In this document: piece by piece, positions 3,157 to 63,749 of the stretch | How the letters are laid out: each line of letters starts with the position of its first letter | Numbering within the stretch: position 1 is the first letter of the stretch | Assembly: GCA_964016885.1 (NCBI GenBank) | Contig: OZ024760.1 | Location: 2,108,001 to 2,172,000 of the forward strand | Length of the DNA: 64,000 nucleotides | From: Eledone cirrhosa | Taxonomy: Eukaryota | Direction: 5' to 3' | Position numbers and translations under genes: made by a program | The notes under the pieces: model-generated | Told to the model about the DNA's origin: nothing | Database searches by the model: none | Seen by the model: only the letters and a program-made list of their open reading frames with translations

Positions 3157-3227
3157 AAATCGATGGTTCAGTGGTAGAATGCTCGCCTGCCATGTGGGCG
3201 GCCCGGGTTCGATTCCCGGTCGATGCA
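3157..3227 (+). tRNA. tRNA-Gly(GCC)-derived copy, probably a pseudogene or SINE head
   Basis: TGGTTCAGTGGTAGAATGCTCGCCTGCCATGTGGGCGGCCCGGGTTCGATTCCCGGTCGATGCA; A and B boxes intact, anticodon GCC at 3189-3191; first two acceptor-stem bases unpaired (AA for GC); CACGCG changed to CATGTG. Confidence 0.8.
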
Positions 3228-4619
3228 ACCATTTTCAAAGGGCGGTGCCCCGGCATGGCCTCAGCCGGATGGCTGGAACAAGCAAAAGAGTAAATTAATT
3301 AATTAATAAATAATTCTAATAATTGTTTCTATTTTAGGCACAAGGCCAGCAATTACCCAGTACATTACTGGTACTTTATTTTATCGACCCCGTAAGGATG
3401 AAAGGCAAAGTTAACCTCGGCGGGATTTGAACTCAGATCATAAAGGGACGTAACTATGCTTCAAAGCATGGTGTCCGACTCTCTACCGATACTGCCCTAA
3501 TAATGATTTCTACTTTAGGCACAAGGTTAGGGGGTTGAAGGGAGAGTCAATTAAATCAACCCCCAGAGCGTTACTAGTACTTTATTTTATTGACTTCGAA
3601 AGGATGAATGGCAAAGCTAACCTCAGAACTCAAAGGGCCATAACTCTATGCCACGAAGCATGTTGTCTGATGCTCTACCAAATCTGCCAATAATAATAAT
3701 AATAATTGTTTCTACTTTTGGGACAAAGCCAGCAATTATCCCAGTGCATTACTGGTACTTTATTTTATCGACCCCGTGAGGATGAATTGCAAAGTTAACC
3801 TCGGAGGGATTTGAATTCAGACCGTAAAGGGGCGTAACTCTATGCTACAAATCATGGCGTCTGACCGTCTACCGATACTGCCAATCCACTAATAATAATA
3901 AAACACCTAACATAGGCACAAGCCCATAAAAATTGATTATTTTTCTGAAAAATATAATTGAAACACAGACAATTAGATATTTCATTAGAAATAAGGTTTC
4001 ATAAGAATTAACCTTCTTGGTGCTGTCAGCGACATAAGTCACCGATAGAGTAATCCTCCCTTAATACATAATTCTGTGTCAAGGAAAGCTATTCATAAAA
4101 AATTCAGCGTCCTAAAGCTTAATATTCTCTACCATTTAGTATTTAAACTGGTCACATCTGGCCAGAACTCTCTCACCTCTTTCTATTCAAACCAACTGTA
4201 ACTGCTCACTCATACTGATGTTAATCCTTCAGCATTTACATTACTCTATATTTACGATTGTATTTTCAAGGTAAACACTTTATTTCACATACATATCTCG
4301 TATAATATCGAATCTATGAGATTTTGATATTATTTATTTGGGAACAATACCTTAACATCAGTATCAGTGGCCAGTTACAGCCGGTTTGAACAGAAAAAAG
4401 TGAGAGAACTCTGGCCAGATATGGCTGGTTTAAATGCTAAAAGGTCAAGGTATTGTTCTCAAAATAAATAACATCAAAATCTCATAGATTTGATATTATT
4501 TGAGACAATTATGTAAGATAAAGCCTTTACCGTGAAAATACAATAGTAAATATAGAGTAATGTAAATGCTAAAGGGCTAAATAAAAAAGAAATTACTATA
4601 TTATAAAAATCTTTCTTAC

Positions 4620-31665: not shown

Positions 31666-32053
<388 letters not shown>

Positions 32054-37146: not shown

Positions 37147-37700
37147 TTATATATATATTTATATAGCAAAAAACAAAACAAAATCATGCTGGTATATAGC
37201 AACAGTAGTTTCCTAGTTTAAGCTCATTTTTTTTAGTTGTTGTATTTAAAAGGGAGCGGGAAGGGGTGAGGTTTGAATAAAGGTTTCAATTAACATTGCA
37301 TGAATTTTTTTTTATTATACCAACCTCATCTGATGGGGGAGTGTTCTGAAATTCAAAAAATGCAAAAAAATAAAAAATAAATAAAATTAAATTTATAAAA
37401 TCACATGATTTAAATTTCCCTTCAGTTTCTTATATATTGATCTCCAAAACAAATATACATTTAAATATATAAAAGACCCCTTTGGTCACAAATGATGATG
37501 GAATATACACCTAGAAAATTTCCCCTCTGAGCTCCAAGTCTGGGCAAGGTGTTTTTGTAGAAAACCAGTAGTGGCCCATGCATACTAGTTTCTTCTGTCC
37601 ATGCCACCAATGTTGTCCAAGACAAATACAGCTTGGCACTAGTGATGTCACAACTCATATATACACCAAATATATACAAATCTTATATACATAACATAAA

Positions 37701-37774
37701 TATTTCATCTGATGAGCATACTGGATGTTTCTGTTATGATCGTCTAGTATCCTGAAACCTTTGGTAATGGAATA
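37701..37774 (+). ncRNA. Type I hammerhead ribozyme
   Basis: TATTTCAT-CTGATGA-GCATACTGGATG...CGTCTAGTATCCT-GAAACC ttt GGTA-ATGGAATA; 8-bp stem I, GUA triplet. Confidence 0.8.
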
Positions 37775-37941
37775 ATGGAATAATTATATTGTGTTGTTTA
37801 TTATGTAATTAAATACTATATATATATATATAGTAATAATAATAAAATTGAAGACTAAAATCCAAAGAGGGCTCGATAAGGAAAATATATATCAAATATA
37901 TAAGAACCGTAGAGCAAATATTTATTAAAATAACAGATTAA

Positions 37942-37992
37942 AGTTTAGGCAAAGAATCGCTGCTTTCACCCTTAACGGGATCTTCTGAAACT
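37942..37992 (-). ncRNA. Hammerhead U4A variant with mutated triplet
   Basis: AGTTT-CAGAAGA-TCCC gttaa GGGT-GAAAGCAG...TTGCCT-AAACT. Confidence 0.55.
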
Positions 37993-38217
37993 AAAAAAAT
38001 CAATCTGTGAACGCAGAACTGGATATTTCAAAAAACCTTGCAAGTTCTTTGTAGAAATATTCAGATGTTGTTTCTGCATGATGAATATAAGTCAGTAGAG
38101 TGCTCAACCGAAGGAGCCAAATAGTAATAATAATAAAATTGAAGACTAAAATCCAAAGAGGGCTCGATAAGGAAAATATATATCAAATATATAAGAACCG
38201 TACAGATTGACTTTGTT

Positions 38218-38268
38218 AGTTTCAGAAGATCCCGTTAAGGGTGAAAGCAGCGATTCTTTGCTTAAACT
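38218..38268 (+). ncRNA. Hammerhead U4A variant
   Basis: AGTTT-CAGAAGA-TCCCGTTAAGGGT-GAAAGCAGCGATTCTTTGCTT-AAACT; stems I and III pair, CUU triplet. Confidence 0.65.
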
Positions 38269-38513
38269 TTAATCTGTTATTTTAATAAATATATATATAT
38301 ATGTATATTGTAAATAGTCAGGACCCCAATGGCTGAGCTCTTGCCATTTCAACAGCTATTTCCAGACTCAGTCTGGAACTAGCTGTTGAAATGGCAAGAG
38401 CTCCGCTGTCGGGGTCCTGACTCTTTATAATATAACCATACTCTACTACCCCAAGTATCAAGTACTCTGGTAAGTAATGGTCTAACCAGTTTCAAACTGA
38501 ATAAATCCTGATT

Positions 38514-55051: not shown

Positions 55052-55393
55052 ATATACACTCTGCTCTGCATTGAGTGCTGACATTGGTACTCTCACCAGT
55101 TTGCTTCAGACTTACTGAAGTTCTCTTCAGACTTACTGAACCTTTTACATGTATATATATATACACACATATATATATATATTAAAATAACAGATTAAAG
55201 TTTAAGCAAAGAATCGCTGCTTTCACCCTTTACAGGATCTTCCCGTTAAGGGTGAAAGCAGCGATTCTTTGCTTAAACTTTAATCTGTTATTTTAATAAA
55301 TATTTGATCTTCGGGTTTTATATATATTTATATATATATTTATCCTTATCGAGCCCTCTTCAAAATTTTAGTCGTCACATATATTATTATTAC

Positions 55394-55426
<33 letters not shown>

Positions 55427-61818: not shown

Positions 61819-62395
61819 CTGGACATTGATAAAACCAAAAGAGTGGAGTGGGACAAAAAAAAAATTAAAAAAAAAGGAAAAAAAGAAAGAAAAAAGAAGA
61901 AAAAGAAAGAGATTTTAAAAAGGCATTATTATAGTCACAGAGGAAAATAGAGAAAAGATCACGGAAAGAGTTATCTTACAGCTGATTAGGGACCAAATTA
62001 ACCTTGATGAAATGTATTAATGTATTGAATCTTGGTGATTTTTTCATTTAAATATAAATATAAATATATATATATTTATATAGTAATAATAAATGTGAAG
62101 ACTAAAATCCGATAAGGGCTCGATAAGGATTATATATATATACATTTGCCAATACTGTTTGTTTTTATTGATTTATTATTTTAAATCGAGATAGGCAAAC
62201 TGTAATATTATAATTAGTATATTTCATTCTAGCTAAGTTAATTTCTTTTACAATATAAACACAGATATGTTGGTATTTGTGTTTCATCATATATATTAAT
62301 TTATATTTACTTGTATTATACGGCTCAGAAATATTTTTTTTCTTTGAGCTATTTCATTGTAAAGGAATGCTTGAGTTTTGAACTCAATACACTTA

Positions 62396-62427
<32 letters not shown>

Positions 62428-63002
62428 AAAATCCATAGAGCAAATATTTATTAAAAAAAACAGATTAAAGTTTAAGCAAAGAATTGTTGCTTTCACTCTT
62501 AAACTTTAATCTGTTATTTTAATAAATATATATATTTATTTATCGACAGTCGATCAACAAGATCCCAGACCTCATTCGGTTAACGAGTGGGGTGGAGCTC
62601 ATCAAATTGGACCGAGGAAAGAATGTTTCCGTTGGTCTTTCCAATTGCTAATACTGTCTGTCGGTCGCAAATCCAGGCAGAAGGAGCAATGTGAAATAAA
62701 GTGTCTTGCTGAAGGACATAACGCATCGCCCGATCCAGGAATCAAAATCACAACCTCACGATTGTGAATCCAGCTCTCTAACTACTCAGCCACACACCTT
62801 CACTATTTTAAATATATAAATATATATATTTTTTTTTTTTTTAGGTCAAATACCAACCCTACTACCATCTACAAACTGACCAATGAGAATCAAGACTATT
62901 GCTGCTGACAACATTAAATTATTCCTAACAAGCTCATATGTCCCAAGGCTCTGATACAATCAACACTATAAACACAGAGCTGGCATATCTAAGAACTGAC
63001 TA

Positions 63003-63453: not shown

Positions 63454-63493
<40 letters not shown>

Positions 63494-63749
63494 ATAATAA
63501 TAAATTTGAAGACTAAAATCCAAAGAGGGTTCGATAAGGATAAATATATATCAAATAAGAACCGTAGAGCAAATATTTTAATATATATATATATATATAT
63601 ATATAACTACAACAGTGACATAAACAGATACTTAAGTTTATTTGGGTTCTTGACCCAACGAAACACTTAAGTACCTGTTGTAGTTATTTATGCCAAACTC
63701 GTCCTATGGACTGAGTGCTCTTACCCATGGATATTTATATCAAACTTTT

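What the first reader, a model, noticed from the sequence alone, without database searches (positions are those of the whole stretch)
37831..38292. An unrelated family shows the same inverted-plus-permuted architecture (~291-bp unit)
Seen: A(37831)-B(hammerhead on minus)-C-A(38122)-inverted B. Read on the ribozyme strand this mirrors the 14330 element although the sequences are unrelated. Inference: a shared integration mechanism acting on small ribozyme RNAs of different families.
Basis: partly seen in the sequence, partly recalled or inferred. Interest (0 to 1): 0.78.

Follow-up and report, generated by a model that had tools for sequence, protein, structure and literature searches.

The report
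Penelope mini-copies: retrozymes being born
This 461-base insert is a cut-down copy of a full-length Penelope-type jumping gene, one of dozens of short copies in this genome whose mostly different join points line up along a predicted RNA stem, which suggests how small ribozyme-carrying repeats (retrozymes) likely arise from their parent elements.

Summary
The repeats are real, but 291 bp is not a family unit. The element maps in full to an autonomous 3,261-bp Hydra-clade Penelope-like element (PLE; 709-aa RT plus GIY-YIG; reference copy L068, positions written r): 3' end, junction r79|r3050, first 79 bases, second 3' end, then an inverted arm. Partial tandem plus inverted arm is published PLE anatomy (PMC8557442). 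Here 53 of 62 two-armed inserts pair one arm ending at r3175 with one at r3261. New: 74 loci hold such mini-units, 280-554 bp long, with 61 different junctions; the window's is unique. Junctions track a predicted stem between the ORF start and the 3' UTR (48 of 74 against 24±3 permuted), and both arms or all tandem units of one insert usually share the junction. So the short RNA likely exists before integration, a candidate birth route for retrozymes. Against: no covariation, no RNA data, one mini-unit only in a sister family, and a non-canonical ribozyme core (U4 to A). The 14330 element is a true fixed-unit family with the same PLE footprint.

The parts
37817..37831 (.). (TA)n target, left side; it is itself the end of an older hammerhead-bearing remnant at about 37695-37817
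   Evidence: sequence; hammerhead-like motif at 37709
37832..37917 (-).
37918..38043 (-).
   Evidence: 97% to L068 over 37832-38043
37934..38008 (-). type-I hammerhead-shaped motif, U4 to A family-wide, U16.1 to C at 37948 in this copy; predicted cut between 37947 and 37946; activity untested
38011..38036 (-). 3' UTR strand (r3082 to r3057) of the predicted long-range stem
   Evidence: pair probabilities mostly 0.8-1.0 in three natural tandem copies; circular fold of this unit
38043..38044 (-). locus-unique junction r79|r3050 that removes about 2,970 bp (ORF and most of the 3' UTR); lies in the loop capping the predicted stem
38044..38122 (-).
   Evidence: 100% to L068; followed by the ORF in full copies
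38123..38200 (-). second, 5'-truncated 3' end (r3261 to r3184) forming the partial tandem; 0 mismatches in 78 nt to the first
38201..38292 (+). inverted arm r3084-r3175 ending at the inner fixed site; 100% to L068, 4 differences from the direct arm; 2-nt microhomology at the centre
38293..38303 (.). (TA)n target, right side

Best explanation
The element is an internally deleted copy of an autonomous Hydra-clade Penelope-like retroelement, likely inserted when the parent's enzyme cut a (TA)n tract and reverse transcription started from both DNA ends, and its short unit likely came from an RNA whose ends were held together by a predicted stem. Shown: every base maps to the 3,261-bp parent; 3' ends fall at r3175 or r3261; two-armed inserts pair one of each; junctions are many, track the predicted stem, and are shared within an insert. 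Inferred: (1) the GIY-YIG domain cuts (TA)n and each end primes internally on element RNA, one at r3261 and one at r3175, and the two cDNAs join head to head by microhomology; (2) r44-106 pairs with r3025-3083, so the RNA domain 3' UTR-hammerhead-tail-ORF start has its free ends side by side; trimming and ligation, or an RT jump across the open end of the stem in an earlier round, fixes a junction; (3) the resulting 280-550-nt unit keeps the initiation sites and the start of the ORF and is copied in trans more than once round, giving partial tandems and arrays. At this locus the two arms differ at 4 of 92 bases, so two RNA molecules were probably used. Identity as a deleted PLE about 0.97; two-ended priming about 0.75; stem-guided, RNA-borne junction about 0.5.
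For: Map to L068 at 97-100%. Four open 709-aa ORFs; model pLDDT 92, best PDB match TERT, E 1.4e-8; a 41%-identical homologue hits Pfam GIY-YIG above cut-off. 126 of 134 mapped 3' ends at r3174/5 or r3259/61, some of the latter internal; 53 of 62 two-armed chains inner plus outer, 1 outer-outer, 8 interrupted or unclassifiable; both ends seen as (TA)n loose ends in raw DNA reads of other samples. 95 mini-unit pattern matches (16 + 79) against 857 matches of the head 22-mer. 61 junctions in 74 loci, 52 seen once. Duplex -34.3 kcal/mol against -16.1±3.2 shuffled, 0 of 2,000. Same junction in both arms at 15 of 16 loci (13 exact, 2 within 3 nt) plus 3 more with 6-9 nt of head; same junction in all tandem units of L143, L152, L160, L172.
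Against: The stem is a prediction only: no covariation among 70 haplotypes (19 changed cells keep a pair, 92 break it); 2 of 307 other windows of the element pair better with the head and the tail ties with another window among 294. The diagonal centre (3133) and tolerance (12) were set after seeing fold and data. A sister Hydra family (44% identity) has a different predicted fold and 1 mini-unit in 30 loci, 1 match genome-wide against 46 head-tail joins. Three loci have the other arm running intact through the breakpoint and one has different junctions in its arms. Nine junctions are shared by 22 loci, which fits DNA parents. The ribozyme core is non-canonical and may be slow or dead. Loci came from exact-match patterns, which favour young copies.
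Confidence: 0.7

Rival explanations
1. Each junction arose once as a DNA-level or RT-skip deletion in a full-length copy (the same stem would loop out the 2.9 kb between r107 and r3024); the short parent was then transcribed and copied, with no ligated RNA circle needed.
For: Junction data cannot tell the two topologies apart; 9 junctions are shared by 2-4 loci and most have 0-3 nt microhomology; L015, L159 and L171 carry the junction in one arm only, as first-round RT skips would.
Against: 52 of 74 loci have a junction seen nowhere else in the assembly, so most parents would have to be missing; both arms share the junction at 18 loci. Parents could be absent from a single-haplotype assembly, so this is not excluded.
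Confidence: 0.4
2. The inverted arm is a fold-back copy of the first cDNA, later cut by the endonuclease at r3175, rather than a second priming event.
For: Would explain shared junctions in both arms without a circle; PMC8557442 ascribes the tail to EN-mediated resolution; microhomology at centres.
Against: At this locus the arms differ at 4 of 92 bases while the two tails differ at 0 of 78, and three of the four are variants seen in other copies; several inverted arms hold sequence absent from the direct arm (e.g. L021, L032, L033); two internal RT start sites bounding the tail were measured in vitro for a Poseidon PLE (PMC11167929).
Confidence: 0.15
3. One reading: a self-standing small ribozyme RNA family with a constant ~291-nt monomer.
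For: Real direct and inverted repeats; 13 loci have units of 280-300 bp; the 14330 family does behave this way.
Against: The junction is 1 of 16 matches; the modal unit is about 340-365 bp and the range 280-554; all sequence maps to an autonomous PLE.
Confidence: 0.03

Closest known systems
Hydra-clade EN+ Penelope-like elements (Craig et al. 2021, PMC8557442; passages, section 11 and supplement rows read; Hydra-1_Obim listed)
   Same: Single RT-EN ORF with RWK-like, DKT, CxCx5C, CxxC and CxH motifs; (TA)n targets; partial tandem plus inverted 5'-truncated copy; tail; hammerhead with U on both sides of stem II as in Hydra-1_aJap.
   Different: 3,261 bp (most listed are under 3 kb); tail 86 nt against the 30-40 bp stated; hammerhead core U4 to A; hammerhead row differs from Hydra-1_oBim's; the passages read describe no population of mini-units.
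Metazoan non-LTR retrozymes (Cervera and de la Pena 2020, PMC7229834, passages; Li, Clavereau and Pollet 2026, 10.64898/2026.07.22.740005, parts 1-3 of 5)
   Same: Non-coding 170-400-nt units with a type-I hammerhead, tandem copies, kinship with PLE terminal sequence.
   Different: Those are families with a consensus monomer; here the parent is present and nearly every locus has its own junction. The preprint proposes local tandem amplification of a PLE end and says the mechanism is open; a stem-set boundary and shared junctions in two arms are not in the parts read.
Poseidon PAc of the green anole (Frangieh et al. 2024, PMC11167929, parts 1-2 of 4)
   Same: Two internal RT start sites that bound the tail; both target strands cut and extended; template needs sequence downstream of the start sites; hammerhead cleavage not needed in vitro.
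   Different: Other clade; start sites lie inside the ORF there, upstream of the 5' UTR here; no mini-units reported in the parts read.
L1 twin priming (recalled; only search listings seen)
   Same: Head-to-head inversion joined by microhomology after priming from both target ends.
   Different: In L1 the second primer anneals at a variable internal site of one RNA; here both starts are fixed and the centre varies.

Membership tests
EN+ Penelope-like element (parent) | Single ORF with telomerase-related RT and C-terminal GIY-YIG | tested here: met
   709-aa ORF; TERT top fold match; homologue hits PF01541. The protein itself had no Pfam, NCBIfam or PDB sequence hit.
EN+ Penelope-like element (parent) | Partial tandem pLTR, inverted 5'-truncated copy and tail | tested here: met
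Hydra clade | RWK, DKT, CxCx5C linker, CxxC and CxH flanking E/N, no CCHH inside the GIY-YIG core | tested here: met
   RWR, DKT, CxCx5C (3 of 4 ORFs), CxxC (3 of 4), CxH (4 of 4); conserved in 92-103 of 103 aligned proteins, K of RWK in 76; criteria
Hydra clade | Insertion into (TA)n | tested here: met
Hydra clade | RT phylogeny with reference Hydra proteins | not tested
   No reference sequences were in hand as loci or proteins
Hydra clade | Canonical hammerhead core | tested here: not met
   U4 is A in the family (0 of 248 cores with U); no Rfam match. Described as common in the clade, not as the clade's diagnostic.
Naiad/Chlamys | N-terminal EN | tested here: not met
   EN motifs at residues 564-692, after the RT
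Non-LTR retrozyme family (this element) | Constant monomer shared by many loci | tested here: not met
   61 junctions in 74 loci; this one unique
Non-LTR retrozyme family (this element) | Non-coding 170-400-nt unit with type-I hammerhead, in tandem | tested here: met
   291-nt unit, 1.27 copies here; arrays at L143, L152, L160, L172
Non-LTR retrozyme family (this element) | Self-cleavage and circular monomer RNA | not testable with these tools
   No RNA holder listed
Non-LTR retrozyme family (14330 element) | Constant monomer, high copy number, canonical core | tested here: met
   ~418-430-bp unit in 24 best and 29 of 30 unselected loci mapped; 11,409 exact ribozyme 26-mers

The most novel reading that the evidence does not exclude
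An active Hydra-clade PLE keeps shedding retrozyme-sized RNAs: the folded domain 3' UTR-hammerhead-tail-ORF start is closed into a circle at the open end of a long-range stem, not at the ribozyme cut site, and the parent enzyme copies that circle from both ends of a (TA)n break. About a tenth of the head-bearing copies in the genome would be such newborn retrozymes, each from its own circle, and fixed-unit families like the 14330 one would be the rare winners of this process.
Probability: 0.35. Interest if true: 0.72.

Novelty: new variant of a known kind. Interest (0 to 1): 0.5.

Why it matters
What matters is the population around it. Retrozymes are proposed to derive from PLE ends, but the papers read leave open how a monomer's boundaries are set and how it is mobilised. 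This family shows parent and dozens of independent short derivatives side by side, with junctions that follow a predicted RNA stem and are shared between the two arms of an insert. That gives a direct test: sequence circular RNA, probe the stem, and run the PLE enzyme on linear and circular mini-templates. The inner-plus-outer end rule (53 of 62) is also a genome-scale readout of the two start sites measured in vitro for another PLE.

Tried and rejected
Rfam: no hammerhead match. Pfam, NCBIfam and PDB sequence searches of the ORF: no informative hit; identity came from motifs, homologues and fold. First guess Naiad: rejected, EN is C-terminal. Splicing or back-splicing as source of the junctions: rejected by inspection, junctions spread over about 200 nt of head and 125 nt of tail and those looked at show no GT-AG; not scored formally. 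Systematic base differences between direct and inverted arms (editing): none; apparent ones were private changes in the query or the reference. 'One arm stops exactly at the junction' (L087, L127, L148): rejected, those arms carry 6-9 nt of head beyond it. Covariation of the stem: no support. Generality in a sister family: one mini-unit; one search found none because the known case had a mismatch in one anchor. One strand was folded in the wrong orientation and is ignored; unconstrained folds of the hammerhead region are not better than shuffles (z 0.78 and -0.25) and the three-stem form needs the core held open. RNA evidence: no RNA holder listed. An autonomous parent of the 14330 family was not found; two neighbouring ORFs were unrelated insertions and no dedicated search was made. 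Literature searches without a matching description: (open-access library only); supplements of the bioRxiv preprint were not seen. Scan-note look-ups were empty.

Full report
Observation. The window lies in a 3.0-Gb AT-rich animal genome; a cephalopod is my guess and was not tested. The repeats are as described: 85 nt direct at 37830/38121, 99%, spacing 291, and 91-nt inverted arms at 37918-38008/38202-38292, 97%, with (TA)n on both sides. Rfam gave no hammerhead match. By inspection and a fold with the core held unpaired, the minus strand at 37934-38008 has type-I topology: extended stem I, 3-bp stem II flanked by U and U, GAAA, stem III. The core has A at position 4 in the family (0 of 248 matched cores have U, overlapping loci included), where the Hydra hammerheads in PMC8557442 File S2 have U. 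The sense copy here also has U16.1 changed to C; 2413 of 2418 reads of one run have the family base. Self-cleavage is untested, and this copy is probably impaired.

What it is. A search of the genome with the unit gave 1,695 candidates, 40 scored. In many copies B ran on into a 3' UTR and an endonuclease ORF, and C ran on into an RT ORF. Locus L068 holds a natural full copy of 3,261 bp with a 709-aa ORF. On it the window element maps in full: 37832-38043 = r3261 to r3050, 38044-38122 = r79 to r1, 38123-38200 = r3261 to r3184, all minus, and 38201-38292 = r3084-3175, plus. The protein has no Pfam, NCBIfam or PDB sequence hit. It has 476 homologues at E<=1e-20 among 7,996 scored; one at 41% identity hits GIY-YIG. 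A model from 103 sequences (pLDDT 92) matches TERT best. RWR, DKT, CxCx5C, CxxC and CxH are present and conserved, the motifs given for the Hydra clade (PMC8557442 section 11). No tree was built.

The architecture is the known PLE footprint. PMC8557442 describes partial tandems, an adjacent inverted 5'-truncated copy and a tail. L068, L070, L071 and L074 show it on full-length copies. 126 of 134 mapped 3' ends fall at r3174/5 or r3259/61, some of the latter being internal tandem joins. Of 62 two-armed chains in 114 loci, 53 pair an inner with an outer end, 1 is outer-outer and 8 are interrupted or unclassifiable. Raw DNA reads of other samples show (TA)n loose ends at both sites. PMC11167929 measured two internal RT start sites bounding the tail, with both target strands cut and extended. 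I infer priming from both target ends and head-to-head joining by microhomology. At this locus the arms differ at 4 of 92 bases while the two tails differ at 0 of 78, so two RNA molecules were probably used.

The 291-bp unit is not a family unit. A pattern that spans the junction with up to 30 bases matched 16 places, and the window's junction is 1 of the 16. A gap of 31-300 gave 79 more; the head 22-mer alone matches 857 places. After merging repeated places, all 74 loci were mapped: units of 280-554 bp, most often 340-365, 61 junctions, 52 seen once, 9 shared by 22 loci, mostly 0-3 nt microhomology (one search prints 63 because small indels split L168). Exact-match anchors favour young copies and cap the unit near 580 bp.

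The junctions are not random. Folding three natural tandem joins predicts a stem between r44-106 and r3025-3083, with pair probabilities mostly 0.8-1.0 and 0.5-0.9 at the outer end. The duplex scores -34.3 kcal/mol against -16.1±3.2 for shuffles, 0 of 2,000. 48 of 74 junctions lie within 12 nt of its diagonal against 24.2±3.3 when partners are permuted, 0 of 20,000; centre and tolerance were chosen after seeing the data. The commonest junctions (r110-114 with r3016-3018) lie just beyond the open end of the stem, and the window's junction caps the stem in a circular fold. Where both arms cross a junction it is the same at 15 of 16 loci, and at 3 more with short heads; tandem units share it too (L143, L152, L160, L172). 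Since junctions differ between loci but not within one, the junction was most likely already in the RNA that was copied. It is not the ribozyme cut site (after r3146).

Results against this reading. No covariation among 70 haplotypes (19 changes keep a pair, 92 break one), which close, decaying copies may not be able to show. Two of 307 other windows pair better with the head. Three loci have one arm intact through the breakpoint and one has two junctions. A sister family, 44% identical over 474 aa, has the same two-end rule but a different predicted fold and a single mini-unit genome-wide against 46 head-tail joins. No RNA run was listed. A deletion in a parent copy that is missing from this assembly remains a strong rival, because the same stem would loop out the 2.9 kb in a linear monomer.

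The 14330 element. Its ~418-bp unit has no significant similarity to this family. It recurs intact in the 24 best loci and in tandem, ends mostly at two sites about 56 nt apart and forms inverted arms (29 of 30 unselected loci mapped), and its ribozyme 26-mer occurs 11,409 times. It fits a non-LTR retrozyme moved by PLE enzymes; no parent was found.

Comparison and novelty. The parent is a new member of the Hydra clade, which already has an octopus member. Retrozymes as PLE derivatives are proposed in PMC7229834 (passages) and in preprint 10.64898/2026.07.22.740005 (parts 1-3 of 5), which leaves the mechanism open. I found no description of stem-aligned, locus-unique mini-units in searches, which cover open-access papers only; the preprint's supplements were not seen. 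Earlier scan notes on this genome report two-armed fixed-unit families; they are unchecked AI notes and not counted as support. Verdict: ordinary architecture, no fixed 291-bp family, but a testable view of retrozyme birth. Interest 0.5.

Noticed in passing
window 55175-55394, 62081-62139, 62410-62529, 63490-63578: Four more short copies of the same PLE 3' end; 55175-55394 and 62410-62529 are two-armed.
   Followed up: partly
window 37695-37817: A different hammerhead-bearing remnant with a canonical core, ending in the (TA)n into which this element inserted: nested PLE-type insertions.
   Followed up: no
window 38304-38434: A 65-nt-arm palindrome (89% complementary), MITE-like; a similar sequence lies near L096:1250-1390.
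   Followed up: no
window 14734, 22148, 36097, 40504, 63008, 63333 (+); 53906, 53704, 40746, 28235, 27779 (-): Further hammerhead-core-like motifs from a loose pattern; several likely mark other PLE or retrozyme families.
   Followed up: no
L072 (G000:C2:273375860-273383324): A two-armed array of about eleven 406-bp mini-units with one junction (r123|r2978), split by a later LINE-type insertion.
   Followed up: partly
L069:5276 and window 37919: About 660-740 reads per RAD run leave the element at the inner end into one constant foreign sequence ending in CTAG-like letters: another repeat joined at this site, possibly Helitron-type (recalled resemblance).
   Followed up: no
L068:1547 and L245 head position 46: In two Hydra families the start codon lies 44-46 nt after the outer end and is predicted to be paired with upstream pLTR sequence, a possible translation control.
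   Followed up: partly
window 3157-3227 (+): tRNA match above the Rfam gathering score (48.1 bits); weaker tRNA-like matches at 41157 and 51515.
   Followed up: no
window 31899-31989 and 4142-4434: A perfect 45-bp-arm hairpin and a long imperfect inverted repeat picked up by miRNA models below threshold.
   Followed up: no
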